This document shows, one piece after another, positions 13,016 through 62,871 of a DNA stretch of 64,000 nt (position 1 is the stretch's first letter; each line of letters begins with the position of its first letter). A program made the translations under genes and the position numbers. Under the pieces are notes generated by a model. It was not told where the DNA came from. It saw only the letters and a list, made by a program, of their open reading frames with translations, and did no database searches. Source of the DNA: Deltaproteobacteria bacterium (lineage in GTDB: Bacteria; Myxococcota; SpSt-1050); the NCBI GenBank assembly GCA_026416535.1, contig JAOAFA010000121.1, positions 12,153 to 76,152 on the forward strand, written 5' to 3'.

Positions 13016-13495
13016 TTATTTATTGCAAAGGGGAAGGCAGGAGTTGATCAATGAAAGTATAGTGGCGGCGTATATTGCTGCAATTATGTCATCAAGTAAT
13101 ACATAAATAGGTTTTTTTATGTTGTTAACTCTGTTTATCGGGAAGGGTTTTAGTATATCAAAGATCCTAAATAATGTGAAACCTACCAGCAAATTAAGTA
13201 AATTCGTGGGAAATAGATAGAGTGGAGAGTACGAGATTAGAATTCCCAGAATTTCATCAAGTACAATTTTGGGTGAATCAACATCATTAAAATGGCCACC
13301 AGCTATATCTACTGCCCAGAGTCCAACGAAAAATAAAGTAGTCAAGGTAAAAAGATAGATCCATAAATTTAGGTGAGATAGGCCTGTGAACAAAAATACG
13401 GCAAAGAGTGAGCCCATTGTACCAGGTGCAAATGGGGAGTATCCTATACCCAGGCCAGTTGCGAATATCACTGCGATCTTTTCAGATAATTGCAT
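13016..13495 (-). CDS. pgpA: Phosphatidylglycerophosphatase A
   Basis: FATGLGIGYSPFAPGTMGSL is the PgpA motif. About 160 aa membrane protein. Its start overlaps the upstream MMPL gene by 14 nt. Confidence 0.8.
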   Translation of the reverse strand: MQLSEKIAVIFATGLGIGYSPFAPGTMGSLFAVFLFTGLSHLNLWIYLFTLTTLFFVGLWAVDIAGGHFNDVDSPKIVLDEILGILISYSPLYLFPTNLLNLLVGFTLFRIFDILKPFPINRVNNIKKPIYVLLDDIIAAIYAATILSLINSCLPLCNK

Positions 13496-15950: not shown

Positions 15951-15965
15951 AGTTAGTCCATTTTA

Positions 15966-17912: not shown

Positions 17913-17932
17913 GGGGATGTCCTAAATTTTAC

Positions 17933-19621
17933 TTATTTGAAGATAGAAAGATCTAATTCAATCCCTCTTTGCCTGAGTTCATCATAAAATTTTGGGATAA
18001 ACCCTGTTGCAACAAATTCTCCCAGGACTCTCCCATTCTCGTCATATCCCTGTTGTTTAAAAACGAATATGTCTTGCATCGTAATTATATCGCCTTCCAT
18101 CCCTGTAATTTCGGATATATGTGTAACCTTTCTTGAACCGTCCGAAAATCTGGCTTGATGTAGTATTATATTTATAGCGGATGAGACCTGTTCTCTTATT
18201 GCCCTGACAGGAATATCAATGCCGGCCATCAGAACCATGGTCTCAAGTCTTGACAGTGCATCTCTTGGGGAATTTGCATGTATAGTAGTGAGGGAGCCGT
18301 CATGACCTGTATTCATTGCTTGTAGCATATCCAGTGCCTCACCTCCCCTGCATTCCCCAACAATTATTCGGTCTGGTCTCATCCTTAAACAGTTTCTCAC
18401 TAAGTCCCTAATTGTAATCTGACCCTTTCCTTCTATATTTGGGGGTCTTGATTCGAGTTGGACCCAATGTTCTTGTTTTAGTTGCAGCTCTGCTGCATCT
18501 TCCACTGTTATAATCCTCTCATCATTTGGGATAAATTCACTGAGTGCATTTAGGGTTGTTGTCTTTCCGGAACCCGTACCTCCGGAGATAAGTATATTCT
18601 TTCTGTAAAATACGCAGACTTTCAAGAATTCAACCATCTCCTCACTTATAGTATTTGACCTTATCAGGTCATCCATTGTGAGCTTATCTTTTCTAAATTT
18701 TCTTATCGTGATTGTAGGACCTTTAATCGCCAGTGGAGGTATTATAGCATTGACTCTGGATCCATCCTTTAGCCTAGCATCTACAAGAGGGCTTGATTCG
18801 TCAATTCTTCTTCCTAGTGGCGCAATTATTCTCTCTATTGCTCCCATGACTGCCTGGTCAGAAGAAAATGTTTTATCAGTCAGGTATAGTTTACCATCTC
18901 GCTCTATGTAAATCTGTTTTGCACCATTGACCATGATCTCTGTTACTGTTTTATCAGCTATGAACTCTTCAAGAGGTCCGAGTCCTAGTGCCTCATCTAC
19001 GATTTCCTGGATTATTTGTGACTTATCAGCACCTGATGGGAATTGACCCTCTCTTTGAAGGAGTTCTACGATCTCTCTTATTTTTTCTCGAGTTCTTTCA
19101 TAAAGTTCGCTTTCTCCTAATTTAGACAGGTCTAGTCTTTTCAGATCCATAGCCTCTATCAACCTGGAGTGAACTTCTCTCTTGAATGCGGAGATGATCT
19201 CCTCGTTAGGTGCCTTTGACGGTGGCTTTTGAGGCATTGAGGCACTGGGTATCTTAGTATTTTTTTGCGCAGGAGGGATTGGAGGTGGTGGAGGAGGGGT
19301 TCTTTGTTTTATATCATCTGAAGATGCCTTATGAGTAGGTGGTAACAGGACAATCTCGTATTCGCCAATAGATATAATATCATTTGGTTTTACTACCACA
19401 GGCCCATTTATCTGTTTGCCATTTACGAAAGTGCCATTGGTGCTTCCAACATCCATGATTACATACCTACCGTCCTTGATGAGCATTCTTGCGTGTCTCT
19501 TACTAACGCTGGGAACTGCTAGTATGAGATCATTTTCTTGTGCTCTTCCAATAAAGATAGAGGTTTTATTGAGCTCTTGAATCTTTTCAACTCCCTGTCC
19601 GATTATTTTTAGTTTGAACAT
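17933..19621 (-). CDS. cpaF: Tad/Flp-type secretion ATPase (CpaF/TadA family) with N-terminal FHA domain and Pro-rich linker
   Basis: FHA domain SIFIGRAQENDLILAVPSVSKRHARMLIKDGRYVIMDVGSTNGTFV. Linker PPPPPPIPPAQ. Walker A ILISGGTGSGKTTTLNAL. The ATG start (MFKLK) has a GAGG RBS. The ORF-track upstream extension uses TTG. Confidence 0.9.
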   Translation of the reverse strand: MFKLKIIGQGVEKIQELNKTSIFIGRAQENDLILAVPSVSKRHARMLIKDGRYVIMDVGSTNGTFVNGKQINGPVVVKPNDIISIGEYEIVLLPPTHKASSDDIKQRTPPPPPPIPPAQKNTKIPSASMPQKPPSKAPNEEIISAFKREVHSRLIEAMDLKRLDLSKLGESELYERTREKIREIVELLQREGQFPSGADKSQIIQEIVDEALGLGPLEEFIADKTVTEIMVNGAKQIYIERDGKLYLTDKTFSSDQAVMGAIERIIAPLGRRIDESSPLVDARLKDGSRVNAIIPPLAIKGPTITIRKFRKDKLTMDDLIRSNTISEEMVEFLKVCVFYRKNILISGGTGSGKTTTLNALSEFIPNDERIITVEDAAELQLKQEHWVQLESRPPNIEGKGQITIRDLVRNCLRMRPDRIIVGECRGGEALDMLQAMNTGHDGSLTTIHANSPRDALSRLETMVLMAGIDIPVRAIREQVSSAINIILHQARFSDGSRKVTHISEITGMEGDIITMQDIFVFKQQGYDENGRVLGEFVATGFIPKFYDELRQRGIELDLSIFK

Positions 19622-19637
19622 ACGTAACCTCAATACT

Positions 19638-21101
19638 CTAATCGAAGATATTAAATTTGACTTCTCCTTTTGCTTTCTTATATCGTGCCTTTATGTCATC
19701 AATCATTTCTTTAACTCTTGGTGTATTTGGGGATACAATCCTTGGTGTTACAAAGATAGCAAGGTCGGTCTTCTTTTCCTGAAAGTTTCTGGATTTGAAT
19801 AATTCACCTAATATTGGTATATGACCCAGCAACGGAAGTTTACTTACATCCTTTGATTCGTCATTATGAAATAATCCTGATAGAATGATTGTCTCTCCGT
19901 GTTTGACTGTGACTTTTGTAGAAATCCTCCGTGTCTTAAAACCCGGTATTGATACTCCAGAATTTGGAAGCATTATAGAAAGGGAGCGGTCCACGTCACT
20001 TATTTCGGCATCAATGCTTGTCTGTATATTCCCCAAGGAGTCCGCATTCGGGGTTATCTCAAGTTTGACTCCGAAATCTTTATATTCCACACTCGCTGAA
20101 TCTCTGGTAATAAGTGGTATAGGTATCTGTCCACCTGATAGGAAGCTCGCCTTCTCGCCACTTGCTGATATCAGTTTTGGTTGTGCAAGAACTCTGGAGT
20201 AGCCATCATTAAACTGAAAGCCAAAGGCAAAGTCCGAACTTGCAGTGGCTATTCCACTCGTAGTAATTGTTCTTGATGATTCTCCAGAGCCTTTAATTAC
20301 ATTTACGTCATCATATCTAATCGTCCCTTGTAGATTTCCCGATATATCCGTTGGGTATTTGATCCCTATCTTATCAAACGAGCCCCTCTTTATCTCCACG
20401 AATTGTACCTCTAAAAGGACCATTCTTTTTATTCCTATTGTCACTAAGTTCTCTACTTGTTCTCCTACAGCCCTTATGATGATATCCATTTTTTTCATAT
20501 CCTCAGCTGATTCGACCGACCCCTCAAGATAAGCGATATTACCAACTACATTTGCATTGACATCTTTAATACCGTTTCTTTTTAGTGTCTCAACAAGTGC
20601 ATTCGCCGAGAGCCTTTTTGCATTGGGGTTTAGTTTGACGTTATTAGTTACATTTCCATAAAGCTTTGTTAGTTGGACAACACGGTCGTAATCTTCAGTG
20701 GTTATGGCATTCCCTTCAATTATCACTAACTCACCAACTTGGTTTACTTTGATACCTTCTCTATCACCAAGGAGTCTCTTTACATCAGCTATTGTCGCTT
20801 TTTGAGAAGAGGGGGTAACCTTTATTATATATTCTATTTGTTTGTTTCCTTTAAATACAACCATATTGGTCTCACCGGGTCCCATGCCTCGCACAATGAT
20901 CTGATTGCCGACTGCAGAGACTGAAGCAACCGATGAATCTCCCTCTACAACCTTTGTGGCGCCAGGTATGGAAAACGTCCTTGATTGACCTACACTAAGT
21001 ACGATTATGTTAGTAGACCCAGGTGGTAAGGAATCTTCAGTAGAGTAAAGATTACTTATTATCATCAGTGAGAAAATCAGGCTCAATAATGCTTTTTTCA
21101 T
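19638..21101 (-). CDS. cpaC: Tad/Flp pilus-type secretin (CpaC/RcpA family) with BON-like N-terminal domains
   Basis: Signal peptide MKKALLSLIFSLMIISNLYS. C-terminal secretin signature GETIILSGLFHNDESKDVSKLPLLGHIPILGELFKSRNFQEKKTDLAIFVTPRIV. Confidence 0.88.
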   Translation of the reverse strand: MKKALLSLIFSLMIISNLYSTEDSLPPGSTNIIVLSVGQSRTFSIPGATKVVEGDSSVASVSAVGNQIIVRGMGPGETNMVVFKGNKQIEYIIKVTPSSQKATIADVKRLLGDREGIKVNQVGELVIIEGNAITTEDYDRVVQLTKLYGNVTNNVKLNPNAKRLSANALVETLKRNGIKDVNANVVGNIAYLEGSVESAEDMKKMDIIIRAVGEQVENLVTIGIKRMVLLEVQFVEIKRGSFDKIGIKYPTDISGNLQGTIRYDDVNVIKGSGESSRTITTSGIATASSDFAFGFQFNDGYSRVLAQPKLISASGEKASFLSGGQIPIPLITRDSASVEYKDFGVKLEITPNADSLGNIQTSIDAEISDVDRSLSIMLPNSGVSIPGFKTRRISTKVTVKHGETIILSGLFHNDESKDVSKLPLLGHIPILGELFKSRNFQEKKTDLAIFVTPRIVSPNTPRVKEMIDDIKARYKKAKGEVKFNIFD

Positions 21102-21203
21102 AATGTAAGCTCCCAAAAACTTTAATGGAAATATAATATATTTAAGTAATAGGAGTTGTCAATTTTTATTACAGAATTTATTTTATAACCCCCTATAAAC
21201 TTA

Positions 21204-24458: not shown

Positions 24459-24890
24459 TTTAATCTCCTCCCGTATATTTTTATACCAAACACTGAGTTT
24501 ATTACAATTAAAAATGGTTTGGATTTTGGAACTATACCCATTAGTGTTGCTATTGAAAATAACACAGTGTTGATTTGTTCTTTTATGGCCTGACTCGCGA
24601 CTATGGAGTGATAGTTGTTTATAACTTAGATTGGCCTAATACAAATGTGTCTCAGTTTGGAGATATTTTTAGTATATTCAAGGAGATAGGAGTGGGACCA
24701 AGATCTAAGGCTTAAAATCTGGATCTAGATATGTTACTCAATACAGCGAGTGCCTATTTTCGACAGCTTTTGGTCCTAAAAGTGTGGTTACAAAATCATT
24801 TATTGGTAGTATGGTGTAGATATGTAAATAAATTTTTATATTGAAGAATGTAAATATTGGTGGTAATTGAAAATGTTATTGAGGGGTTAT

Positions 24891-26291
24891 ATGAAACGTA
24901 AAGAACTTATTGGAAAGATATTGATAGAGAGGCTAATGATAAATGAGTCTATTGTTATAAACGCCCTTACAAGGCAAAAAACAGATAAGATGAGGATATG
25001 CTCTCAAATTTTGAAGGCTGGGGCGTTATCTGAGGAAGTTCTTGCAAGGGCGCTTAGTTATCAATATGGTATTCCTGCTATTGTTTTGGGTAAGTCTCAG
25101 ATACTCTTGTCGAATCTTGGAATAGTGCCCTATCATATAGCTCGTCAAAATCAGATCTTACCGGTAGCAACTAGCGGGGAGAAGGTTATATTGGCCATGC
25201 GTGATCCTGAAAATACTCAGATAATCTCCGAGATTGAGTTTATCTCTGGGAAGAAGGTAATGCCTCACATCGCACTTGAATTTATGCTTTCTATATCAAT
25301 TGACGAGGCATATAGATTATACAAGTTGAGTCGTGAGGGACTACTGAGAGGGAAGGATATACCATCAAATGCCATAAAAGAGGAACACATCGAAGTTGCA
25401 ATTGCGGAGTTGTCGGTAGAGCCTGAGCTAGCCGGCCCTGATAGATTTGAAGTTGTCTCAATGCAAGATGACATAGAAAATATTACAAGAGGAAGAGATA
25501 TTGCTGATGAGTTCAGAGATAGGAATAAACCTCTTATATGTATAGTTGATGATGAACCAGAGATAAGGACCCTATTGAAGAAGATTGTAATCTCAGAGGG
25601 CTACGATACTGTAGAATTTTCACGTGGTGATGAGGCATTTAGGTCTATCCCTAAGGTCTTACCAGATTTGATCATTTTGGACGCCATGTTGCCAGGTATG
25701 CATGGATTCGATATATGTAAGGCGTTAAAGACGGACTCGAAGTTAAGAAATATCCCAATAATCATAGTAAGTGCAGTTTATACAGGTTGGAGATTTATGG
25801 AAGATATTAAGAAGACTCATGGGGCAGATGATTATATAGAAAAGCCGTTCAGAATAGATATGCTTACTAATAAAATCAAGGCATTGCTTAGAAAGGTGGC
25901 ACCACATTCGGGAACTACAACTGGAGAGTTGAGTATAGATGTAAAGAACCTTTATAATAGTGCAGTGAGACTCTATAAAGAGGGAGATATAGATGGTGCT
26001 ATATACCAATTTAAAAAGGGAATAGAGAAGGACAATTTTTACTATAGGCTTCATTACGGGCTTGCACTCTGCTATCAGAGTAAAAAGGAAGATTATATGG
26101 CCATATCCGAACTTGAAAAGACTGTAGAACTCAAACCCGATTTTTTACCAGCCTTAAAGGCTCTAGCCCTTCTATACCAACAGAAGGGTTTTAGAAATAA
26201 GGCAGTAGAGGCATGGGAGCGGGCATTGAATGTTGCCTCAGATGAGGAGACGAGAACAAAGATTAAGGAATATCTCATCAAGATTTTGTAG
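24891..26291 (+). CDS. Regulator with N-terminal T2SSE_N/MshEN-like domain, central receiver (REC) domain and C-terminal TPR repeats
   Basis: T2SSE_N pattern LIGKILIERLMINESIVINALTRQ...ILPVATSGEKVILAMRDPENTQIISEIEFISGKKV. REC domain ICIVDDEPEIRTLL...DLIILDAMLPGMHGFDICKALK. TPR-like tail. GAGGGG RBS before the ATG at 24891. Confidence 0.75.
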   Translation: MKRKELIGKILIERLMINESIVINALTRQKTDKMRICSQILKAGALSEEVLARALSYQYGIPAIVLGKSQILLSNLGIVPYHIARQNQILPVATSGEKVILAMRDPENTQIISEIEFISGKKVMPHIALEFMLSISIDEAYRLYKLSREGLLRGKDIPSNAIKEEHIEVAIAELSVEPELAGPDRFEVVSMQDDIENITRGRDIADEFRDRNKPLICIVDDEPEIRTLLKKIVISEGYDTVEFSRGDEAFRSIPKVLPDLIILDAMLPGMHGFDICKALKTDSKLRNIPIIIVSAVYTGWRFMEDIKKTHGADDYIEKPFRIDMLTNKIKALLRKVAPHSGTTTGELSIDVKNLYNSAVRLYKEGDIDGAIYQFKKGIEKDNFYYRLHYGLALCYQSKKEDYMAISELEKTVELKPDFLPALKALALLYQQKGFRNKAVEAWERALNVASDEETRTKIKEYLIKIL

Positions 26292-26297
26292 TACCGT

Positions 26298-28049
26298 ATG
26301 AAATTTTCCTGCAATAGTTGCAATGCGAGATATAATCTGCCGGATGAGAAATTTGCTGGCAAGGTTATAACTCTTACTTGTAAGAAGTGTGGAGTTAAGA
26401 TAGTAGTAAAACCATCTAATCCCTCGCATGGTATGCAATCACAAAAAGAGGGCTCTAATTTGGGAACAAGTTTAGTGGCCGCGGATCTGCAGATTGAAAA
26501 ATCGACTAAAAGGCAGGAGTTAAAGAGAAAGGATCTTACAACAAGGTCTACTGTTGGAGAAAAAAGGTATGATAAATCTTTCGAGGGAGATAAGGCATTA
26601 GAGAAGGGTGTGAGTTCTGTTAGAATGGATGTGAAAAAAGTGGGAGAGGTAGATAGTATCAGGTCGGTTGATGAGAGATATAAAGGCGTTAAGGGGAAGG
26701 AAGAGAGGTTAGAGAGGAACCGTGAAGTTAAAAGTGAGAAGTTGGAGGAGGAAGACAAGGAATTAGCAGTTTGGTATTACTCACGTGGTGGTGAACAGAA
26801 GGGACCGTTCACTGATGAAGAAATTAGAGAGTTAGTAGAGAGCAATGTAATAACTCCAAAGACATTTATATGGAAAGATGGGATGTTGGACTGGATGAGG
26901 GCATCGACGGTTGTAGAATTTAAACACTTTTTTGAAGGTAAACCTAGCAAGGAACCTGTGGTAAAAGAGGTTGTAGAATCTTTGGGTTTAGAGGAATTAG
27001 ATAAAAAATTCAAGGATCAAAAGGTTGGGGAGAGGATTCAGGAAGTGGATGTTTTGGGTAGTGAGGGAGCAGATAAGGGTGGGGGAACTCAGGAAGACTT
27101 CTTTTCCATAGGATTTGGTCAAAATACTCAAAAATCTCCTGAGGAGGATTGGACTAAGATACCACTGTCTAATGAGGTGTCAGAAGAGCCTCGTGAAAAT
27201 ACGAGGATCGTGATTATGAAGGCAGGGCTCTCTGAGGCAGCAAAGAAAAAAAGGGTAATAATGGGGATTGTTGTGGCCGTATTTTTGCTTAGTGTATTTT
27301 TGTTCGTATTTATTAGAAATCTTGAACCTATCCTCTCGGCAGTTGGTGTCCAGGTTAAAAGTGGGATCGACCTCGAAATGGAGGATTTAGATAAAGATAC
27401 CCTTTCTAAGATGACACCTGAAGAACAGGAGAAATACAGAAAGGCACTCCTTGGTATAAAAGAGACGAAAAAGCTTACAAAGGAACAAAAGAGGACTATA
27501 GCAATGGCTATTACTCAAAGGAAAGACTCTGATATGGTTAGTATTCTTGAAAGTGCAAAGGTTGATACTTCGAGCATAATTTATGATAACCTTGGGAGAG
27601 AAAGAATGGGGCCTCAAGGAGGTATAACCACTTCAGTGGATATTGATTCAAGGCTCGCTAATTTGGGTATTAACACAAAGATTGAAGGTGTTGATTTGAG
27701 TTCTAGGGGAATCAAGCAGGATGTGGATCTTTCACAGAAATTGCCCGATAAGGTTGATACTCTTAGTGAAGACATAGTTATGAGTATAGTCAATAAGAAC
27801 AGAAGTTCTGTGAAATACTGCTATGAGAGGCACCTTAGGGCTAGTAGTTTCTTGGAAGGTAAGGCGGTCTTCAAGATTACTATTCATAATTCTGGTTCTG
27901 TCTCAAAGGTTGATTCACTCTCCAAACAGATTTCAGGAAGTCTTTTTGAAGATTGTATTATCAAGGAGATTAGAAAGTGGGTTTTCCCAAAGTTTTCTGG
28001 TGACCCTATTGTCTTTGAGATACCGTTTGTCTTGACCTCTGTGAATTGA
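26298..28049 (+). CDS. GltJ-like bitopic protein: N-terminal zinc ribbon, GYF-like (DUF4339) domain, single TM helix, C-terminal TonB-C-like domain
   Basis: Zinc ribbon CNSCNARYNLPDEKFAGKVITLTCKKCG. GYF-like WYYSRGGEQKGPFTDEEIRELVESNVITPKTFIWKDGMLDWMRAS. TM helix IMGIVVAVFLLSVFLFVFI. TonB_C-like end FLEGKAVFKITIHNSGSVSKVDSL...IIKEIRKWVFPKF. Confidence 0.65.
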   Translation: MKFSCNSCNARYNLPDEKFAGKVITLTCKKCGVKIVVKPSNPSHGMQSQKEGSNLGTSLVAADLQIEKSTKRQELKRKDLTTRSTVGEKRYDKSFEGDKALEKGVSSVRMDVKKVGEVDSIRSVDERYKGVKGKEERLERNREVKSEKLEEEDKELAVWYYSRGGEQKGPFTDEEIRELVESNVITPKTFIWKDGMLDWMRASTVVEFKHFFEGKPSKEPVVKEVVESLGLEELDKKFKDQKVGERIQEVDVLGSEGADKGGGTQEDFFSIGFGQNTQKSPEEDWTKIPLSNEVSEEPRENTRIVIMKAGLSEAAKKKRVIMGIVVAVFLLSVFLFVFIRNLEPILSAVGVQVKSGIDLEMEDLDKDTLSKMTPEEQEKYRKALLGIKETKKLTKEQKRTIAMAITQRKDSDMVSILESAKVDTSSIIYDNLGRERMGPQGGITTSVDIDSRLANLGINTKIEGVDLSSRGIKQDVDLSQKLPDKVDTLSEDIVMSIVNKNRSSVKYCYERHLRASSFLEGKAVFKITIHNSGSVSKVDSLSKQISGSLFEDCIIKEIRKWVFPKFSGDPIVFEIPFVLTSVN

Positions 28050-28844
28050 ATGTTCATATTTTATCTGCTTCTAGTCGTATCTTTGATTGATCTTAGGGGG
28101 ATTGAGGAGCTTATAAGTGAGGGCGCTAATCTAACTTTTGATAAGAAATTAGAAGTTATCACCTCTTCATTTTTAAATGTTCCGTTTAAGAAGTCATCAA
28201 TAGGAGAAGAAAATGAGATAGACCCTGACCCTATTATTAATTTGGATTATATGGATTGTGTGACGTTTGTTGAGTATGTGATTGCATTTGTAAATTCAAG
28301 AGATATAAAAGAATTTAAAAAACATGTGTTAAGTTTGAGGTACATTGGAGGTAAGATAGATTTTTATAATCGTCTGCACCTACCAGATTTTCAATGGTTC
28401 CCAAATGCAAGTAAGAACGGCTATATAAGCGATATAACCTTTCAGGTAGGAAAAGGTTATGTAAGAAGGTTTAAGAAGAGGCTGGATAAAGATTTTATCG
28501 TTGATGGATATAAAATAGATAGTTCTAAGTTAATTTCTAGAGATGTGGAAATAGATTATATCCCCAAAGAACATATATTTAATGTTTATAAGGATATTCC
28601 CAAATATTCTATTATAAGAATTTTAAGGAAGGACTCTTATAGACCGTTTGTTACGACCCATATAGGGATTGTTGTGGAAAAGGGGAATAAAAAGTATTTA
28701 AGACATTCCTCTAGGCATTTTGGGGCAAAAGTGACAGATACCCCACTTGGGGCATATTTTTCTACACTTGATAAATATGAAAATTGGGAAGCCCTTGGAG
28801 TTGCACTCTATAAAATTAATGATATAAATGGGGGGACAAAATAA
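28050..28844 (+). CDS. DUF1460-family protein (NlpC/P60-like, amidase-like papain fold)
   Basis: Conserved Cys/His context MDCVTFVEYV ... TTHIGIVVEKG. The start overlaps the upstream stop (TGAATG). Confidence 0.55.
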   Translation: MFIFYLLLVVSLIDLRGIEELISEGANLTFDKKLEVITSSFLNVPFKKSSIGEENEIDPDPIINLDYMDCVTFVEYVIAFVNSRDIKEFKKHVLSLRYIGGKIDFYNRLHLPDFQWFPNASKNGYISDITFQVGKGYVRRFKKRLDKDFIVDGYKIDSSKLISRDVEIDYIPKEHIFNVYKDIPKYSIIRILRKDSYRPFVTTHIGIVVEKGNKKYLRHSSRHFGAKVTDTPLGAYFSTLDKYENWEALGVALYKINDINGGTK

Positions 28845-28853
28845 TTTTGATTT

Positions 28854-29768
28854 ATGAGTGTGATTAACAAAAAAGTCTTTTGGGCAAGATTATCTGTTAT
28901 TTCAAATACTATATTGGCTGTTTTTAAGCTCATCGTGTTTAGTTATACTGGTGCAGTTTCCATATTGTCTGAGGCAATACATTCTGGAATAGATCTCCTT
29001 GCGGCTTTGATTGCCTATTTTTCTGTTAAAAAGTCGTCGGAGCCTCCTGATAGAGAGCATCCATTTGGGCATGGTAAATTTGAAAATCTGTCCGGTTTTG
29101 TAGAGTCACTATTGATTATAGCTGCTGCTTTTTACATTTTTTATGAGGCAATTCCAAGATTTTACAAGGAGCATAGGATAGATTCAATAGATATAGGTAT
29201 ATATGTAATGGCTCTATCTGCTCTAATTAATTTCTTTGTCTCTCGGAAGCTTTACAAGGTTGCCAGAGAGACGGATTCCATAGCTATTGAAACAGATGCG
29301 GCGCATCTCTCCGTAGATGTCTACACATCTTTGGGTGTTCTTATAGGATTATCTCTAATTTATATTACAGGATTGCAAGTTATTGATCCTATTATCTCTA
29401 TTATAATCGCTTTTTATATTTTATATCTGGGGTTCGTGTTGACAAAAAAATCTACTAAGGATTTGTTAGATACCAAATTATCGGATTCTGACAATCAGGA
29501 TATAGAGAATATTATTGCCCAACATATTGGGAAAATAGTCTCGTTTCACAAGTTGGCTACTCGGAAGTCTGGAAGTGAAAAGATGATAGAGGTTCATCTA
29601 CAATTTATGCCCAATATCTCGCTTAAGCAGGCTCATGAGATCGCTCATCACATAAAAGATGATATAAGAGATAAGATATCATCTGCCAGAGTTACAATTC
29701 ATATAGAACCATGTGAGGAGTTGTGTAAAGAGTGTAGTTCTAATGGCTGTACATCTAGAAAGGAGTAG
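28854..29768 (+). CDS. Cation diffusion facilitator (CDF) family metal efflux transporter
   Basis: TM domain with SEAIHSGIDLLAALIAYFSVKK and HGKFENL motifs, plus a C-terminal cytoplasmic domain. Confidence 0.85.
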   Translation: MSVINKKVFWARLSVISNTILAVFKLIVFSYTGAVSILSEAIHSGIDLLAALIAYFSVKKSSEPPDREHPFGHGKFENLSGFVESLLIIAAAFYIFYEAIPRFYKEHRIDSIDIGIYVMALSALINFFVSRKLYKVARETDSIAIETDAAHLSVDVYTSLGVLIGLSLIYITGLQVIDPIISIIIAFYILYLGFVLTKKSTKDLLDTKLSDSDNQDIENIIAQHIGKIVSFHKLATRKSGSEKMIEVHLQFMPNISLKQAHEIAHHIKDDIRDKISSARVTIHIEPCEELCKECSSNGCTSRKE

Positions 29769-29773
29769 TTATT

Positions 29774-29974
29774 TTACTTTATAATCATTTCTTCTCCGCA
29801 GCATATTACCGGATGGTACTCCTCACAACCACATACGTTGTCAACAACGAGGACCATGCCGCACTCACTACATTCAAGTGTTGAACCTGATTTGATTTTC
29901 TTTGTTTCTTTCTCATAGCAACCTTTCACCTTTTTTGTTTCCTTTTTACCTTTTTTTGGTGAATCCTTCTTCAT
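29774..29974 (-). CDS. Small desulforedoxin-like Cys4 metal-binding protein with Lys-rich N-terminal tail
   Basis: LECSECGMVLVVDNVCGCEEYHPVICCGEEMI resembles desulforedoxin (CxxCG...CCG). The N-terminus is K-rich (KKGKKETKKVKG). Confidence 0.5.
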   Translation of the reverse strand: MKKDSPKKGKKETKKVKGCYEKETKKIKSGSTLECSECGMVLVVDNVCGCEEYHPVICCGEEMIIK

Positions 29975-30070
29975 ACTAACCTCCTAAATACTAACCCTTA
30001 TATTTAGATTAAATATTATACCGTAGGATTCCGGGATTCTTGAAAAAGAAAGTCATGATCAGGTAATTTT

Positions 30071-33000
30071 TCAAAAACTGGTGGTTTGTAATTCTTTTAT
30101 TATCGATGTCATCTCCTGATCCTTTATGTTGTTAGTGTCAATATTAGCTAATAATTCTCTTACTTTTTCAAAATTACCTTTATTGTAGTGGTGTTTGATA
30201 ATCAACAATAGGGCATCTTCTTTCTCTTTATCGGTAATTGAATCTGATGAAAGTAGTGTTTGAGTATATAATTCTAGCTTTTCTGTCTCTCCTAAAACGA
30301 AGTATATTTTTTGAATATTTGTGAGAAACTCTTTGTCCCTTGTCTCTTCAAGGCACCTATCTATGTGGGCGAATAATAGTTCATTTTTACTTTTATAAAA
30401 GATCGAAGTGGTTAGTTCTACATATTTTCTTAGGATATGAGATATGTTATTACACTTTGTGGGTGAGTAATTCTCTTTTGATTGAGGATAGTTTTTGAGA
30501 AATGTATGATATGCCAATAATTCAGCATAGTTATTAATTATGTAAATATTTTCTTTGTCTAGGTTGTAATCTAGTATGTACCCGAAACAACTTCTTGCAA
30601 CTTGTTTCTGTCCTCTAGCCTCGCAAGATTTAATAAATTCCAATAATTCTTCAAAATTCATTTTATATATAACGTCTTTTATTAATTCTTTTGTATTTAA
30701 TTTACTATATTCGTGATTTACATTTGTCTCTGCTATAATAGAGATTATATTTGATGTCCTCCCTACAAAAAATGCCTTAGGGGCCTCGTATTCAATGATA
30801 GGGAACTTGTCTTCATTTACTATTAGATCTTCTTCGCCCTTCCCATAATACGTTTTAAACTTATGATGACCTATCATATTCATAGAGACGAATTCAGGAA
30901 TAGTATTTGGAATTCCTAATGAGTGTTTGTCTTCAATTGTCGAAAGAAAAACAGGATCTTTGAACTTTTTGGCTATTCTTTGTTGGTCTATTTTAATGGG
31001 TTTGTTGGAGCCAACAATAAGGAGATCAAGTTGAGCAGGTGCAAACACGTAGGCGTATTCAAATACTCTACCAAACGTATTAAGCATAATGTTTAGTATT
31101 TTATCATTTGTCTCATAGGCCTGAAACCACTGCACAAAAATGCCATTCTCCTTTAGGTGGGATTTAACCTCCTCAAAGTATTGAACAGTAAACAGGTTGG
31201 CCACTCCTGCCATCCATGGGTTTGAAGGCTCCGATATTATTATGTCGTATTTTTTCTGTGGATTCAGTTTTAAATATTCTCTACCGTCAGCATTAATGAC
31301 TCTGACTTTTTTATTGTTTAAGACATCGAGGTTTTCTTCTTTGAATAGTTTGGCTGCCTCAATAACCTCTTTTGATATCTCAAGAAGCTCTATATTCTTT
31401 ATTTCCTCGTGAGTAGCTAATACCCCACCTGTTACTCCACTCCCCATTCCTAATAAAAATACATCCTCGGGATTTGGATGCAATAGTACACCAATGTGCC
31501 CACACCATATTTGGGTCGGCATGTCAAAGCCCGTACTTGCATCTGGTTTTCCGTTTATTCTGAGCGATAATATTCCTTTAGGGGATTTTGTTACTGAAAC
31601 TACCGCATCTTTGCCTTCTTTGAAGAATATAAGGTCTTCATGATCTTTTACCTTCAAAAATTCTTCAAATGATTTTGCATAACGGTTTCTTAGTCTAAAA
31701 TTCCCTCGCTGGATATATTCTTTATCTATAAATTCGTAAGTAAATAATAGGCTGCCTACCAAAATTACTAACAGTAGAGATAAATATTTAAAAAGAGCCT
31801 TTACTCTTATTGTGAATAGTAGTATTATTGCGATAATAAAGTTTATAATAATTCCTGTCTTCATAGATGCTTCCATACCCATGGTAGGTAACATGATAAA
31901 GCCTGCCACAAGAGATCCTACTAAATTCCCCAACGTATTTATTGAGAAGGTGTCGCCTACTCCAATGCCGAGTTTCGTTATACTCTTTGTGTTTATATGG
32001 CTTACAAGAGGCAATGTCATCCCAATAAAGAACGTTGGTAAGAACATAATTGTAAAGCAGATTATTACTTTTGAGATTTCATAAAATATGAACATTGCCT
32101 CTGTCCTTGGAATACTTCCCCCGATAACATTGAAGTAATATGGGAGTCTCATATATAAAGGGAGGGCACAAATGATAGTTATTGCAATGAAAAGTTCGAT
32201 GATGGCGAACCAGAGCAGGTGATTTATCTTTCTATTCAATACCTTGTGGATGAAATATGAACCAACGGCAATTCCTGTTATGAAGGTGAATAACATAATT
32301 GCAAATGATTGAACAGCAGAACCTATTATGAGTGCAAGCATCCTTGTCCAGACGACTTCGTATACCATTGAGACGAATCCACTGATGCCGATTGCTACGA
32401 GTACTACCCTTACTTGAAACTCTGAATATGCCTCTTCATTGCCTACAGTTTTATTGTTGTCAGTATCTTCAATCTGTTGTGGTATAATAGAAAAATCTTC
32501 GCTGATACTTTTACTCATATAATATGTTACTACACCGATTAGGATGTTAACAAAAGAGAAGAGTTGAACAGAGAAATCTAGTCCAATGGTATGGATAACA
32601 AAATAACCACCAATTATTGTCCCAATGATAGCACCTACTGTATTTAAGAAATATAGCAATCCAACTTTTGCTCCTACCTCTCTAATCTGTCTTATTATGA
32701 ATTTACTCATCACAGGGAGTGTTCCACCCATCAGTGTGGTAGGAAGCAGAATTGTCATAACACTAAAGATGAGTTTTAAAATGATGTTCCCCCAGGTATT
32801 TGGAATCGAACCGCTAGCTAGTATAAAATATAGGTTAAAGATGGTGTCAAAATAGAGTGGGAACAGGGCGCAAGTAATCCCAATTCCGAATTCTAAATAA
32901 GAGTAGAGCCGAAGTGGATTTTTATATCTATCAACAAACTTTCCGAATATGTGGTTACCTAATGCAAGTCCGCCCATGAATGTTGAAAGTAAAATACCAG

Positions 33001-33112
33001 TAGAATAAGATGTGGCTCCTAAAAATAGATTAAAATATTTTGACCATACAACTTGGTATATCAGACCTGCCATCCCAGATAGAAAGAAGCAAGCATAGAG
33101 GATGTATTTCAT
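30071..33112 (-). CDS. Fusion protein: polytopic MFS-like membrane domain, spermidine/spermine synthase-like domain, TPR-like C-terminal region
   Basis: About 14 TM helices N-terminally. Spermidine synthase fold motifs VFLLGMGSGVTGG and KYDIIISEPSNPW. 1013 aa. Confidence 0.75.
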   Translation of the reverse strand: MKYILYACFFLSGMAGLIYQVVWSKYFNLFLGATSYSTGILLSTFMGGLALGNHIFGKFVDRYKNPLRLYSYLEFGIGITCALFPLYFDTIFNLYFILASGSIPNTWGNIILKLIFSVMTILLPTTLMGGTLPVMSKFIIRQIREVGAKVGLLYFLNTVGAIIGTIIGGYFVIHTIGLDFSVQLFSFVNILIGVVTYYMSKSISEDFSIIPQQIEDTDNNKTVGNEEAYSEFQVRVVLVAIGISGFVSMVYEVVWTRMLALIIGSAVQSFAIMLFTFITGIAVGSYFIHKVLNRKINHLLWFAIIELFIAITIICALPLYMRLPYYFNVIGGSIPRTEAMFIFYEISKVIICFTIMFLPTFFIGMTLPLVSHINTKSITKLGIGVGDTFSINTLGNLVGSLVAGFIMLPTMGMEASMKTGIIINFIIAIILLFTIRVKALFKYLSLLLVILVGSLLFTYEFIDKEYIQRGNFRLRNRYAKSFEEFLKVKDHEDLIFFKEGKDAVVSVTKSPKGILSLRINGKPDASTGFDMPTQIWCGHIGVLLHPNPEDVFLLGMGSGVTGGVLATHEEIKNIELLEISKEVIEAAKLFKEENLDVLNNKKVRVINADGREYLKLNPQKKYDIIISEPSNPWMAGVANLFTVQYFEEVKSHLKENGIFVQWFQAYETNDKILNIMLNTFGRVFEYAYVFAPAQLDLLIVGSNKPIKIDQQRIAKKFKDPVFLSTIEDKHSLGIPNTIPEFVSMNMIGHHKFKTYYGKGEEDLIVNEDKFPIIEYEAPKAFFVGRTSNIISIIAETNVNHEYSKLNTKELIKDVIYKMNFEELLEFIKSCEARGQKQVARSCFGYILDYNLDKENIYIINNYAELLAYHTFLKNYPQSKENYSPTKCNNISHILRKYVELTTSIFYKSKNELLFAHIDRCLEETRDKEFLTNIQKIYFVLGETEKLELYTQTLLSSDSITDKEKEDALLLIIKHHYNKGNFEKVRELLANIDTNNIKDQEMTSIIKELQTTSF

Positions 33113-33683: not shown

Positions 33684-35132
33684 ATGAAAAGTGTTTTGAT
33701 AATAGATGATCAAGAGACTATACGAATAGGATTGAAGACCGCTATTGAAAGCGATGAGACAAGAAGATTTTTAGGCTTGACTTCCAATATTGAGGTTTAT
33801 ACTGCCTCAAATGGTGAAGAGGGTGTGGCAATTTTTAAACAGAAGTCACCTGATCTCGTTATTACCGATATAAAGATGGATAAGATGTCTGGGATAGAGG
33901 TGATAAGAGAGATAATGGAGGTGGATAAACAGGCCCTCGTAATAGCACTTACAGCATATGCTCAAATACCTGATGTAGTAGAGGCCATTAAGTTGGGTGC
34001 TTATGACTATATTGAAAAACCGTGGCGAGTTCCTGATATAAGAAAGAAGTTGAGGCAGATATGTGGTATTATAAGAGACAGAGAAGAAAAGTCTAGACTT
34101 TCTGAGAAGAATAGGATCCTTACGGAGGAGATAAAGAGCCACTTTTTATTTGAAGATTTCATTGGGAGTTCCAAGAAAATTAAGGAGATTGTATCGATAA
34201 TAGAGAGGGTGGCTAAAACAGACTCGAGTGTCCTTATAACAGGAGAGAGTGGCACAGGTAAGGAAATGGTTGCAAGGTACATACATGAACTTTCTTTTAG
34301 GCGAAATGGTCCATTTGTGAAGGTAAATTGTGGGGCCCTAACTGAGACACTATTGGAAAGTGAGATGTTTGGACATGAAAAGGGTGCTTTTACAGGTGCA
34401 ATAAGACAAAAATTAGGAAGATTTGAACTCGCGGATGGAGGGACTATATTCTTGGATGAGATTGGAGAGCTCTCTCTTTCCACTCAGGTCAAGCTTTTGA
34501 GAGTCTTGCAGGAGAAGGAGTTTGAAAGGGTTGGTGGAGAAAAAACAATAAAGGTCGATTTGAGAATAATTGCAGCGACCAATAGAGATTTGAAAAAAGA
34601 GGTAAAGGAGAAGAGGTTCAGAGAAGATTTGTATTATAGATTATATATAGTTCCGATTGAAATACCACCTCTTAGAGAGCGAAAAGAGGATATTCCGGAA
34701 TTGGCAAGGTACTTTATAAAAAAACATAGAGAGAAGACTCGCTCACATGTGGATGATATCTCTTCAGAAGCATTAGAGATCTTAAAGAAGTATCACTGGC
34801 CGGGGAATATACGTGAACTTGAGAACGTGATCGAGCAGACATTAGTCCTTTCAGCGGGAAGTATAATCAGACCTGAGGATTTGCCTTCCCATATTAGAAG
34901 TCCTTTATGTGACCAGAAGAATGATATAGGGACCGTAGTTGCACGTTTTACACACGGTATGAATCTTGACAACTTTATCTCTGATATAGAGAGACAAATA
35001 ATAAAAGAGACATTATATCTTACTAAAAATAATAAGGCTGAGGCAGCGAAACTGCTTGGTATAAGGTTATCTACTCTCCAATATAAGATTGCAAAATATA
35101 ACCTCACAGAGGATTTTCCTGATGAGGTATAA
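33684..35132 (+). CDS. Sigma-54-dependent response regulator (NtrC family: REC, AAA+ sigma-54 activator, Fis-type HTH)
   Basis: Receiver VLIIDDQETI...DLVITDIKMDKMSG. Walker A GESGTGKE. GAFTGA motif. C-terminal HTH. Confidence 0.92.
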   Translation: MKSVLIIDDQETIRIGLKTAIESDETRRFLGLTSNIEVYTASNGEEGVAIFKQKSPDLVITDIKMDKMSGIEVIREIMEVDKQALVIALTAYAQIPDVVEAIKLGAYDYIEKPWRVPDIRKKLRQICGIIRDREEKSRLSEKNRILTEEIKSHFLFEDFIGSSKKIKEIVSIIERVAKTDSSVLITGESGTGKEMVARYIHELSFRRNGPFVKVNCGALTETLLESEMFGHEKGAFTGAIRQKLGRFELADGGTIFLDEIGELSLSTQVKLLRVLQEKEFERVGGEKTIKVDLRIIAATNRDLKKEVKEKRFREDLYYRLYIVPIEIPPLRERKEDIPELARYFIKKHREKTRSHVDDISSEALEILKKYHWPGNIRELENVIEQTLVLSAGSIIRPEDLPSHIRSPLCDQKNDIGTVVARFTHGMNLDNFISDIERQIIKETLYLTKNNKAEAAKLLGIRLSTLQYKIAKYNLTEDFPDEV

Positions 35133-62321: not shown

Positions 62322-62871
62322 GTTGGATCACCGTCCATGATATGTAGTCTATGTTTCCCCCCTTCTCGACAGCCTTGAATGGCGGGGGCTCTGTTGAATC
62401 CTGTAGAAAAGGTCTATCTGCTAATATGACTTCCACTGTGTGAATTGATCCTCTTGATTTATGTGGCAAAATAGAATTCTTTATATCCAGTGTAAAACTG
62501 TCTCCACTTCTTGTAATACTCTTTTTATCAGAGGCAGGAATAACGGAGCTTTTTTGGTAGTTTTTAATATATTCATAGTCAATATACCACCGAACATATA
62601 ACATATCATTGGTATCGAGTTCGGTTACTTCTGAAAATGAAAATTCTTTTTTGCAAAGTGAATCAATCTTTACGATGGGAGTCTCTGGACTAATCCTAGC
62701 CTTGTTTATGAGAGGAGGTCTATTATTAGCTTCTAAAACTTTTATCTCCGGCATGTCTAGACACGAAGTCATTAAAACCCAATTGACGACCATACTAAAT
62801 GTTACTACATTATATAGTTGTTTTCTATACATATGGGTTATAGCTGGTGTATGTTGAGGCATTTTAGTCAT
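62305..62871 (-). CDS. Lipoprotein, unknown function
   Basis: Lipobox LMTSC. The start overlaps the stop of the upstream sigma-54 activator (ATGA). Confidence 0.45.
   Translation of the reverse strand: MTKMPQHTPAITHMYRKQLYNVVTFSMVVNWVLMTSCLDMPEIKVLEANNRPPLINKARISPETPIVKIDSLCKKEFSFSEVTELDTNDMLYVRWYIDYEYIKNYQKSSVIPASDKKSITRSGDSFTLDIKNSILPHKSRGSIHTVEVILADRPFLQDSTEPPPFKAVEKGGNIDYISWTVIQLEDCF

What the first reader, a model, noticed from the sequence alone, without database searches (positions are those of the whole stretch)
26298..28049. GltJ-like protein (zinc ribbon, GYF, TM, TonB-C) translationally coupled to the REC regulator
The architecture matches what is described for Myxococcus GltJ, an inner-membrane component of the gliding focal-adhesion motor. 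That protein has an N-terminal C4 zinc ribbon and GYF-like domain in the cytoplasm, one TM helix, a long periplasmic linker and a TonB-C-like fold at the C-terminus. Here it sits 6 nt after the MshEN-REC-TPR gene and directly before a DUF1460 amidase-like gene and a CDF transporter. No AglRQS/TolQR-type motor or other Glt genes are in the window. It may therefore be a reduced or repurposed module.
Basis: partly seen in the sequence, partly recalled or inferred. Interest (0 to 1): 0.6.

Follow-up and report, generated by a model that had tools for sequence, protein, structure and literature searches.

The report
GltJ-like membrane adaptor paired with regulator
The gene encodes a membrane-spanning protein built like the Myxococcus gliding-motor protein GltJ, but it belongs to a separate two-gene unit, found across many myxobacterial relatives, in which it always follows one particular response regulator, so it is a cousin of GltJ rather than a leftover piece of the gliding motor.

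Summary
ORF 26298..28049 (+, 583 aa) has a C4 zinc ribbon (Cys5/8/28/31), a GYF_2 domain, one TM helix and an AgmX/PglI tail that models as a TonB-C fold. The best solved-structure matches are the ZnR and GYF domains of M. xanthus GltJ.

It is not a demonstrable GltJ orthologue. It scores 119 bits against the NCBIfam GltJ equivalog (cut-off 450). No Agl/Glt/TolQ-type gene is in the window. The ZnR-GYF linker is unconserved among its orthologues. The periplasmic spacer is a conserved helical region, not a disordered stretch.

The main result is a conserved gene pair. The upstream MshEN(PilB-N-like)-REC-TPR regulator is followed by a ZnR-GYF-TM-tail protein in 69 of 71 informative loci, down to about 36% regulator identity. 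In the closest outgroup loci the pair sits directly after pilD, and in L006 at the end of a full type IV pilus cluster (pilB-pilT-pilC-pilS-pilR-pilD). In the window's lineage it is fused into an operon with an AmiA-like amidase and a CDF transporter.

Best reading: a trans-envelope adaptor working with its co-encoded regulator, perhaps on type IV pili. That target is inferred, not shown. Novelty: new variant of a known kind. Interest is moderate.

The parts
24891..26291 (+). Response regulator, 466 aa from the ATG at 24891 (ORF listing starts the ORF at the upstream in-frame TTG, 24867). It has a PilB-N-like MshEN domain (aa 1-142), a 72-aa linker, a canonical REC domain (aa 216-329) and TPR repeats (aa ~361-466). 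It is the conserved upstream partner of the GltJ-like gene.
   Evidence: Pfam MshEN, Response_reg and TPR hits. The exact 466-aa protein P0160 is in NCBI. The REC residues D220, D221, D264, S294 and K318 are invariant in 27 family members. The N-domain best matches PilB N-domains in the PDB (Geobacter 6olj E 1e-17, M. xanthus PilB 3jc8 E 1e-14), against XpsE at E 0.4.
26298..28049 (+). GltJ-like bitopic inner-membrane protein, 583 aa plus stop codon: ZnR - linker - GYF - cytosolic region - TM - periplasmic region - TonB-C-like tail.
26298..26417 (+). C4 zinc ribbon (aa 1-40; C5, C8, C28, C31).
   Evidence: Pfam Zn_ribbon_4 E 3.7e-10. PDB 7zok, the GltJ ZnR, E 2.7e-6. Nearly invariant among 10 orthologues.
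26418..26759 (+). K/E-rich linker (aa 41-154), predicted disordered and not conserved.
   Evidence: No conserved columns in A1. pLDDT about 30.
26760..26933 (+). GYF_2 domain (aa 155-212).
   Evidence: Pfam GYF_2 E 4.5e-18. PDB 7z3c, the GltJ GYF, E 1.6e-6. pLDDT 84-90. Foldseek hit to 7z3c.
26934..27272 (+). Cytosolic region (aa 213-325) with short motifs conserved only in this lineage (NAIESLGLDELDKKF, EDFF, DWTKIP, PRENTRIVIMKAGLSE).
   Evidence: Conserved in A1. Not conserved among 44 non-redundant regulator-partnered relatives.
27273..27341 (+). Single TM helix (aa ~326-348), N-in topology (KKKR on the N-terminal side). It has no His and no SHLS-type motif.
   Evidence: Sequence. Helix 313-348 in the model, pLDDT about 80.
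27342..27761 (+). Periplasmic region (aa 349-488). It is highly conserved within the lineage, predicted helical, and has only 3 prolines.
   Evidence: It matches weakly in P0013-P0015 only and is not conserved in distant partnered relatives.
27762..28046 (+). AgmX/PglI C-terminal domain (aa 489-583) with a TonB-C-like fold and two invariant Cys (C508, C553).
   Evidence: NF033768 81.6 bits against a cut-off of 40. pLDDT 78-89. Foldseek hits to TonB/FusB C-terminal domains, rmsd about 3.2 A, probability 1.0. The Cys are invariant in A1 and conserved among 44 partnered relatives.
28050..28844 (+). AmiA-like (PF07313/DUF1460) protein with a hydrophobic N-terminus. Its start codon abuts the stop of the GltJ-like gene.
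   Evidence: Pfam E 3.6e-33. Sequence. The same position is conserved in L001, L002, L004, L007 and L013-L017.
28854..29768 (+). CDF cation-efflux transporter, the last gene of the lineage-specific four-gene block.
   Evidence: Pfam Cation_efflux plus ZT_dimer, and TIGR01297 at 237.7 bits. Conserved after the AmiA-like gene in L001, L002, L004, L013 and L015-L017.

Best explanation
The ORF encodes a bitopic inner-membrane protein of the GltJ architectural family. A zinc ribbon and a GYF domain lie in the cytoplasm, followed by one TM helix and a periplasmic region ending in a TonB-C-like AgmX/PglI domain that is probably stapled by a disulfide.

It is a paralogue-level relative of the gliding protein GltJ, not GltJ itself. 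It is the second gene of a two-gene module that is conserved across Myxococcota-type genomes. The first gene is a response regulator made of a PilB-N-terminal-like (MshEN) domain, a canonical phospho-acceptor receiver and TPR repeats.

Proposed mechanism, by analogy with GltJ:
- The ZnR/GYF head is a docking switch for soluble cytoplasmic partners. Here that partner is most likely the co-encoded regulator, whose state is set by phosphorylation and possibly by c-di-GMP.
- The periplasmic tail holds a periplasmic or outer-membrane partner.
- The pair therefore couples a cytoplasmic signal to an envelope machine, or reports in the reverse direction.
- The most plausible target is the type IV pilus apparatus.
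- In this particular lineage the module has also been joined to an exported AmiA-like amidase and a CDF transporter.

Shown: the architecture, the fold, the relationship to GltJ, the conserved pairing and the operon layout. Inferred: physical contact between the two proteins, ligand control, and the target.
For: Architecture and fold:
-.
- The closest solved relatives are the GltJ ZnR and GYF domains.

A large family shares the architecture:
- About 135 of the proteins analysed, which were the ~150 best 50%-identity representatives plus the close homologues, have one each of ZnR, GYF and tail.

Conserved pairing:
- The regulator family has 1137 hits at 36-48% full-length identity, named from Polyangiaceae, Polyangia and Myxococcota MAGs.
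- Of 83 loci anchored on the regulator, 52 have a complete ZnR+GYF+tail ORF immediately downstream on the same strand.
- In 17 more the partner is cut by the contig end.
- 12 loci have less than 280 nt of downstream sequence.
- Only 2 lack a partner, giving 69 of 71 informative loci. The median gap is 79 nt.
- Pfam independently confirms Zn_ribbon_4 plus GYF_2 in three distant partners, and NCBIfam confirms the tail in two.

Operon:
- The intergenic gaps are 6, 0 and 9 nt, and there is no + strand terminator in 24300-30200.
- The four-gene block is kept in L001, L002, L004 and L013-L017 despite different flanks.

Type IV pilus link:
- The regulator's N-domain is specifically PilB-like.
- In the closest outgroup loci the pair follows pilD: L006 (pilB-pilB-pilT-pilC-pilS-pilR-pilD-RR-ZGT), L007 and L093.

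Analogy with GltJ:
- The GltJ GYF domain binds a proline-rich stretch next to the receiver domain of AglZ (PMC11135422).
- Most regulators of this family carry a proline-rich linker (10-20% Pro) next to their receiver domain.

The receiver is canonical: D220, D221, D264, S294 and K318 are invariant.
Against: - No direct evidence exists for contact between the two proteins. No complex model could be run.
- In the window's own lineage the regulator's linker is not proline-rich (1-6% Pro), so the GYF-to-proline-rich-stretch analogy does not transfer directly to this gene.
- The pilus link rests on three loci, two of which (L006 and L093) are close relatives.
- Most distant loci sit in a housekeeping context: a sigma54 activator, queA, tgt, the pair, then dprA and topA.
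- The MshEN c-di-GMP motif is only partly canonical. In V. cholerae MshE numbering, R9, G18 and G40 are substituted.
- The rough NJ tree does not separate the regulator-partnered proteins cleanly from the group nearest GltJ.
- A divergent lineage could score low on an equivalog model built from Myxococcales sequences, so orthology to GltJ is not rigorously excluded.
Confidence: 0.55

Rival explanations
1. It is the true GltJ orthologue of this organism. It works in an Agl-Glt gliding focal-adhesion machine whose other genes lie elsewhere in the genome.
For: The domain order is identical and the Cys positions are the same as in GltJ. GltJ domains are the best PDB sequence matches. In a rough tree the GltJ fragments fall inside the large clade that also holds the regulator-partnered proteins.
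Against: - It scores 118.8 bits against the 450-bit equivalog cut-off, and the main matched stretch is aa 1-223.
- The regulator-partnered proteins tested score 77-119 bits. Five other same-architecture proteins score 144-247 bits; for one of these (P0017) a locus without the regulator was seen, and the partner status of the other four is unknown or undetermined.
- The linker, which in GltJ carries the MglA-GTP site, is unconserved among the window's orthologues.
- The periplasmic spacer is conserved and helical, whereas GltJ's is disordered.
- No Glt or Agl gene lies within 64 kb.
- The constant neighbour is a regulator that is not part of the described Agl-Glt system.
Confidence: 0.12
2. In this lineage the module acts on the cell wall or envelope rather than on pili. 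The conserved periplasmic region and tail position or regulate the co-translated AmiA-like amidase, with the CDF transporter supplying or removing its metal, under control of the regulator.
For: The stop codon of the gene abuts the start of the AmiA-like gene, and the arrangement is kept in all close relatives and in the sister locus L007. The AmiA-like protein has a hydrophobic N-terminus consistent with export. The periplasmic region 351-488 is conserved only where the AmiA-like gene is present.
Against: The amidase and CDF genes are absent from the great majority of loci that keep the regulator/ZnR-GYF pair. They therefore cannot explain the core module. The catalytic competence of the AmiA-like protein was not examined.
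Confidence: 0.2
3. It is a TonB-type energy transducer that couples an ExbBD/TolQR-like proton motor to outer-membrane receptors.
For: The C-terminal domain has a TonB-C fold, and there is a weak Pfam TonB_C hit. A TonB-dependent receptor lies about 7 kb downstream in one related locus, L001.
Against: - TonB_C is below its gathering score (17.5 against 24.6 bits), while the AgmX/PglI-specific model passes at 81.6 bits.
- The TM helix has no His and no SHLS-type motif (the motif itself is from my own knowledge of TonB and TolA).
- The spacer has 3 prolines in about 140 residues.
- No ExbB, ExbD or TolQ gene is in the window.
- The receptor neighbour in L001 is not conserved.
Confidence: 0.05

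Closest known systems
GltJ (AgmX) of Myxococcus xanthus, a component of the Agl-Glt gliding focal-adhesion machinery (PMC11135422, PMC11761067)
   Same: The domain order is the same: N-terminal C4 zinc ribbon with Cys at 5/8/28/31, a flexible linker, a GYF_2 domain, a single TM helix, a periplasmic stretch and an AgmX/PglI TonB-C-like tail. GltJ domains are the best PDB sequence matches.
   Different: - It is far below the equivalog score (119 against 450 bits).
- The linker is not conserved among the window's orthologues.
- The periplasmic stretch is conserved and helical rather than disordered.
- It is not in a glt cluster.
- It is always partnered with an MshEN-REC-TPR regulator, which GltJ is not described to have.
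Bacterial ZnR-GYF 'switch' proteins as a class (Attia et al. 2024, PMC11135422)
   Same: That paper states that ZnR-GYF proteins separated by a variable linker are widespread, are usually followed by a membrane-associated module, and probably bind ligands other than MglA and AglZ outside the gliding system. This protein fits that description.
   Different: No paper in the searchable library contains both 'GYF' and 'MshEN', or 'T2SSE_N' with 'receiver' and 'TPR', so I found no description of the specific, near-obligate pairing with an MshEN-REC-TPR regulator. The paper's supplementary neighbourhood figures could not be read.
TonB / TolA C-terminal domains
   Same: The C-terminal fold matches: rmsd about 3.2 A to the FusB and TonB C-terminal domains, 27-30% identity over about 70 columns.
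   Different: There is no proline-rich spacer, no SHLS/His TM motif and no ExbBD/TolQR neighbour, and Pfam TonB_C is below threshold.
GltG (PglI) and the NfsG-type TonB-like proteins of Myxococcus
   Same: It shares the AgmX/PglI C-terminal domain. The GltG model matches the tail at 54 bits.
   Different: GltG has FHA domains in its cytoplasmic part rather than ZnR and GYF. Only the tail is related.
ZitP of Caulobacter crescentus (zinc-finger pilus regulatory protein)
   Same: It is a bitopic membrane protein whose N-terminal cytoplasmic zinc finger is structurally similar (2nb9 hit; the similarity of the GltJ ZnR to ZitP is noted). ZitP regulates pilus biogenesis at the pole (name and pole-organiser link; the rest is from my own knowledge).
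   Different: ZitP has no GYF domain and no TonB-C-like tail. Its periplasmic domain is a different family, and no Pfam hit to such a domain was found here.
MshEN c-di-GMP receptor domain / PilB N-terminal domain (PMC5013675), for the partner regulator
   Same: The partner's N-domain aligns with PilB and MshE N-domains. It keeps both 24-residue half-motifs with the terminal Gln and most of the hydrophobic positions.
   Different: It has no ATPase domain. Three key positions are substituted (R9, G18 and G40 in MshE numbering), and in family members the spacer between the half-motifs varies. Ligand binding is therefore uncertain.

Membership tests
GltJ (NCBIfam NF033761 equivalog; Agl-Glt component) | N-terminal C4 zinc ribbon (C5, C8, C28, C31) | tested here: met
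   Sequence. Zn_ribbon_4 E 3.7e-10. 7zok E 2.7e-6. The GltJ Cys positions are from PMC11135422.
GltJ (NCBIfam NF033761 equivalog; Agl-Glt component) | Cytoplasmic GYF domain after a flexible linker | tested here: met
   GYF_2 E 4.5e-18. 7z3c E 1.6e-6. Foldseek hit to 7z3c.
GltJ (NCBIfam NF033761 equivalog; Agl-Glt component) | Single TM helix and a periplasmic TonB-C-like C-terminal domain | tested here: met
GltJ (NCBIfam NF033761 equivalog; Agl-Glt component) | Whole-protein score at or above the curated equivalog cut-off (450 bits) | tested here: not met
   118.8 bits, with the best stretch at aa 1-223.
GltJ (NCBIfam NF033761 equivalog; Agl-Glt component) | Conserved central linker motif (MglA-GTP binding site, L86-T107 in GltJ) | tested here: inconclusive
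   The linker aa 41-154 has no conserved column among 10 orthologues. The GltJ motif sequence itself was not available for direct comparison.
GltJ (NCBIfam NF033761 equivalog; Agl-Glt component) | Long disordered periplasmic stretch between the TM helix and the tail | tested here: not met
   aa 351-488 is highly conserved and predicted helical. The GltJ stretch is predicted to be unstructured.
GltJ (NCBIfam NF033761 equivalog; Agl-Glt component) | Encoded with other glt genes, and presence of aglRQS / gltA-K / mglAB in the genome | tested here: not met
   None is in the 64-kb window, and none of the homologue and regulator-anchored loci whose neighbours were annotated shows a glt gene. The rest of the genome could not be searched.
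AgmX/PglI C-terminal domain proteins (NF033768) | Domain model score above the cut-off (40 bits) | tested here: met
   81.6 bits, aa 489-579. C508 and C553 are invariant.
TonB energy transducers | TonB_C (PF03544) above the gathering score | tested here: not met
   17.5 bits against 24.6. The fold nevertheless matches TonB C-terminal domains.
TonB energy transducers | Proline-rich periplasmic spacer, a TM helix with a conserved His (SHLS-type motif), and an ExbB/ExbD partner | tested here: not met
   There are 3 Pro in aa 351-488 and no His in the TM helix. No ExbB/ExbD/TolQ Pfam hit was found in the window. The motif definition is from my own knowledge.
Regulator-partnered ZnR-GYF-TM-tail module (defined here) | Encoded immediately downstream of, and on the same strand as, an MshEN-REC-TPR response regulator | tested here: met
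   6-nt gap in the window. 69 of 71 informative regulator-anchored loci have such a partner.
MshEN c-di-GMP receptors (partner protein) | Two 24-residue motifs RLGxxLLxxGLLxxxxLxxxLxxQ separated by 5 residues | tested here: inconclusive
   Both half-motifs and the 5-residue spacer are recognisable. The first has L instead of R and no Gly at position 10, and the second has C instead of the third-position Gly. Binding was not testable.

The most novel reading that the evidence does not exclude
The regulator/ZnR-GYF-TonB-C pair is an ancient trans-envelope signalling module found widely in Myxococcota. It links phosphorylation and c-di-GMP state to the type IV pilus machine or another envelope machine. 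The gliding protein GltJ arose from it by duplication and was recruited into the Agl-Glt motor, swapping the receiver-containing partner for AglZ/MglA.
Probability: 0.25. Interest if true: 0.65.

Novelty: new variant of a known kind. Interest (0 to 1): 0.5.

Why it matters
GltJ is the only ZnR-GYF-TonB-C protein with a worked-out mechanism, and it is usually discussed as a gliding-specific part.

This work shows that a sister group of the same architecture is locked to a PilB-N-like receiver regulator in dozens of distant genomes. That yields three things:
- A concrete candidate ligand for the ZnR/GYF switch outside the gliding system.
- A testable link between two-component and c-di-GMP signalling and an envelope-spanning adaptor, possibly acting at type IV pili.
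- A plausible evolutionary source for GltJ.

It also gives an annotation rule. These proteins should not be called GltJ on architecture alone.

Tried and rejected
1. Retrieving full-length M. xanthus GltJ for a proper phylogeny. The third homology search, using the GltJ GYF fragment, returned only the 85-aa PDB construct. The tree therefore used only the GltJ ZnR and GYF fragments and is poorly resolved.
2. The genome-contig scan with the family alignment used patterns from the lineage-specific periplasmic region. It found only two loci.
3. The window's exact protein is not indexed for contig look-up, so the extra 18 kb of its 82.5-kb contig could not be read.
4. The context of P0126, the highest GltJ-model scorer among the representatives at 247 bits, was uninformative: a truncated upstream ORF and no DNA.
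5. The supplementary neighbourhood figures of Attia et al. are not held.
6. A conserved short docking motif shared by all regulator-partnered proteins between the GYF domain and the TM helix was looked for and not found.
7. The promoter scan showed no enrichment over shuffles.
8. A link to the upstream Tad-like secretin/ATPase genes was considered. It was rejected as a conserved association because related loci lack those genes.
9. A complex prediction of the regulator with the cytoplasmic head was not attempted. Chimeric or paired sequences are not accepted by the structure tool, and a single-sequence run would be uninformative.
Full report

ORF 26298..28049 (+) starts at ATG and encodes 583 aa.
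- Pfam finds Zn_ribbon_4 at aa 1-33 (E 3.7e-10) and GYF_2 at aa 159-208 (E 4.5e-18). TonB_C reaches only 17.5 bits, below its gathering score of 24.6.
- NCBIfam finds the AgmX/PglI C-terminal domain at aa 489-579 (81.6 bits, cut-off 40). The GltJ equivalog model scores 118.8 bits against a cut-off of 450, and its main matched stretch is aa 1-223.
- The four zinc-ribbon cysteines are at positions 5, 8, 28 and 31, the positions reported for GltJ (PMC11135422).
- A hydrophobic segment at aa 326-348 is preceded by KKKR. This fits an N-in/C-out topology.
- The best matches among all PDB sequences are the GYF (7z3c, E 1.6e-6) and ZnR (7zok, E 2.7e-6) domains of M. xanthus AgmX/GltJ.
- An AlphaFold2 model built on ten orthologues has low overall confidence because of disordered linkers. 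The individual domains are confident: ZnR about 70, GYF 84-90, TM helix about 80, tail 78-89.
- In Foldseek against the PDB, the tail hits TonB-family C-terminal domains (FusB, E. coli TonB), rmsd 3.1-3.3 A over about 70 columns, probability 1.0. The GYF domain hits the GltJ GYF structure, and the ZnR hits the ZitP zinc finger.
- The other proposed test, the GYF pocket residues, is not meaningful. The GltJ GYF domain itself lacks those residues and binds through its beta-sheet face.

**Surroundings**

- The upstream gene is best read as 24891..26291, 466 aa, identical to an NCBI MAG protein. It is MshEN-REC-TPR. Its stop codon ends 6 nt before the ATG of the GltJ-like gene.
- Downstream, with gaps of 0 and 9 nt, come an AmiA-like (PF07313) protein with a hydrophobic N-terminus and a CDF transporter.
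- No + strand terminator-like site lies inside 24300-30200. The four genes look like one operon.
- Every ORF of at least 120 aa in the window was scanned against Pfam. None is MotA/ExbB/TolQ-like, ExbD/TolR-like, MglA/MglB-like or Glt-like.
- The window is low-GC (about 37%) chromosomal DNA from a Myxococcota/'Deltaproteobacteria' MAG.

**Orthologues**

- Nine full-length homologues at 51-61% identity exist.
- In their alignment the ZnR, the GYF domain, several short cytosolic motifs, the juxtamembrane segment, the TM helix, the whole periplasmic region 351-488 and the tail are all strongly conserved. The ZnR-GYF linker (aa 41-154) is not conserved at all.
- This differs from GltJ in two respects. 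In GltJ the centre of the linker binds MglA-GTP, and the periplasmic stretch is predicted to be unstructured.
- The four-gene block (regulator, GltJ-like, AmiA-like, CDF) is kept in L001/L003, L002, L004 and L013-L017 although the flanking genes differ.

**The wider family**

- An exhaustive profile search of 1.84 billion representatives gave 14,247 hits at E <= 1e-3 and 57 at E <= 1e-30.
- About 135 of the proteins analysed, which were the ~150 best representatives plus the close homologues, have exactly one ZnR, one GYF domain, one TM helix and one tail. The architecture is therefore a large family and is not a signature of GltJ alone.
- No listed representative is the M. xanthus GltJ cluster. 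The best identities to the GltJ fragments are 64-71% in the ZnR and at most 44% in the GYF domain. Three of the four top ZnR matches are proteins of about 900 aa with a different layout, and the fourth is the 604-aa P0126, which is below the equivalog cut-off.
- None of the representatives tested reaches the GltJ cut-off. The maximum is 247 bits.

**The key result: a conserved gene pair**

- The nearest outgroup protein, P0014, is also preceded by an MshEN-REC-TPR gene. There the pair closes a type IV pilus cluster: pilB-pilB-pilT-pilC-pilS-pilR-pilD-regulator-GltJ-like (L006).
- P0015 shows pilD-regulator-GltJ-like-AmiA-like (L007).
- L093 shows pilR-pilD-regulator-ZnR/GYF. L093 is closely related to L006.
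- The regulator itself belongs to a large family: 1137 hits at 36-48% full-length identity, with source names from Polyangiaceae, Polyangia and Myxococcota MAGs.
- I anchored on the regulator, using 80 metagenome loci plus three look-ups, and scanned the loci with HMMs built from 135 representatives. The results were:

| Outcome | Loci |
|---|---|
| Complete ZnR+GYF+tail ORF immediately downstream, same strand | 52 |
| Partner cut by the contig end | 17 |
| Less than 280 nt of downstream sequence | 12 |
| No partner (BamA follows instead: L074, L082) | 2 |
| Total | 83 |

- That is 69 of 71 informative loci, with a median gap of 79 nt.
- Pfam and NCBIfam confirm the domains in distant partners.
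- In most distant loci the context is a sigma54 activator, queA, tgt, the regulator, the partner, and then, in several loci, two unknown genes, dprA and topA.
- The regulator-partnered proteins tested score 77-119 bits on the GltJ model. Five other same-architecture proteins score 144-247 bits, but only one of them (P0017) has a locus confirmed to lack the regulator.
- A rough NJ tree of ZnR+GYF+tail puts the window's clade with P0013, P0014 and P0015. The GltJ fragments fall in a neighbouring group. The tree does not resolve whether GltJ branches from within the partnered family.

**The partner regulator**

- Its receiver domain has all the canonical phospho-acceptor residues, invariant in 27 members.
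- Its N-domain matches PilB N-domains far better than GspE/XpsE: Geobacter PilB E 1e-17, M. xanthus PilB E 1e-14, MshE E 5e-9, XpsE E 0.4.
- The two 24-residue c-di-GMP half-motifs defined for MshEN are recognisable, but three key positions are substituted. Ligand binding is open.
- In most family members the linker next to the receiver domain is proline-rich (10-20% Pro). This recalls the proline-rich stretch next to the AglZ receiver that the GltJ GYF domain binds.
- In the window's own lineage this linker is short and not proline-rich.

**Interpretation**

- Shown: this is a GltJ-architecture protein with a TonB-C-like tail. It is not demonstrably GltJ. It is one half of a widely conserved two-gene module with a PilB-N-like receiver regulator. 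In this lineage the module is extended by an AmiA-like amidase and a CDF transporter.
- Inferred: the ZnR/GYF head docks the co-encoded regulator, the tail binds a periplasmic or outer-membrane partner, and the module couples cytoplasmic signalling to an envelope machine.
- Type IV pili are the best candidate target. The evidence is the PilB-like N-domain and the pilD adjacency in the sister lineages. This rests on few loci.
- A cell-wall role through the amidase is a serious lineage-specific alternative.
- A classical TonB role is unlikely: there is no proline-rich spacer, no His in the TM helix, no ExbBD gene, and TonB_C is below threshold.

**Novelty**

- Attia et al. (2024) already noted that ZnR-GYF proteins are widespread and probably bind other ligands.
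- No paper in the searchable library contains both 'GYF' and 'MshEN', or 'T2SSE_N' with 'receiver' and 'TPR', so the near-obligate pairing with an MshEN-REC-TPR regulator appears not to be described there.
- I therefore rate it a new variant of a known kind, of moderate interest.

**Limits**

- The rest of the genome could not be searched.
- Full-length GltJ could not be retrieved.
- No complex model or experiment supports the proposed contact.

Noticed in passing
window 13482..21116 (- strand): A partial Tad/Kil-like gene set lies here. It comprises a secretin with a pilus N domain (19638..21116), an FHA-fused TadA/CpaF-family ATPase (17933..19633; TIGR03819 347 bits, just under the 373-bit cut-off), a double-FHA-TPR protein (15966..17912) and an HpnN-like RND/MMPL transporter (13482..15950). 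No pilin, TadB/C or prepilin peptidase gene was identified among the scanned ORFs of at least 120 aa in the window. The set is not conserved next to the regulator/GltJ-like pair in related loci.
   Followed up: partly
L074 7747..10281 and L082 (same arrangement): In the only two regulator-anchored loci without a ZnR-GYF partner, the MshEN-REC-TPR regulator is followed, 167 nt downstream, by an 844-aa BamA-type protein (5 POTRA domains plus Omp85). L002 also has a POTRA-Omp85 gene a few genes downstream of the block.
   Followed up: partly
L010, L011, L012, L025, L039, L078, L085, L089 and many others: Distant relatives share a strongly conserved synteny: a sigma54-dependent response regulator, queA, tgt, the MshEN-REC-TPR regulator, the ZnR-GYF-TM-tail protein, and then, in several loci, two proteins without Pfam hits (about 288 and 243 aa), dprA and topA.
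   Followed up: partly
regulator family alignment A2; linker between MshEN and REC (window aa 143-214 of the 466-aa protein): The linker is proline-rich (10-20% Pro, with runs such as PPPPPVPGRPPPVP) in Polyangia-type members. It is short, conserved and proline-poor in the window's lineage. A short acidic-hydrophobic motif (for example FEVVSMQDDIENIT, or TSEFGxIxEEISSV) just before the receiver domain seems to be shared by both types.
   Followed up: partly
window 30071..33112 (- strand): A 1013-aa ORF combines an MFS-like membrane region (aa 6-319) with a spermidine/spermine synthase-like domain (aa 538-689).
   Followed up: no
L002 907..2979 (- strand): A 690-aa protein with PilZ and Hsp70/MreB-like Pfam hits (a PilZ-DnaK-type fusion) lies about 5.6 kb upstream of the regulator in a related locus.
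   Followed up: no
window 26093..26758 (- strand): A 221-aa antisense ORF overlaps the start of the GltJ-like gene. It lies opposite the purine-rich K/E linker region (GC skew +0.33 in 26-28 kb) and is most likely spurious.
   Followed up: no
window 33684..35132 (+) and 62868..63971 (-): Two sigma54-dependent activators are present. One has a receiver domain (NtrC/AtoC-like) 4 kb downstream of the operon. Sigma54 activators also recur upstream of the pair in distant loci.
   Followed up: no
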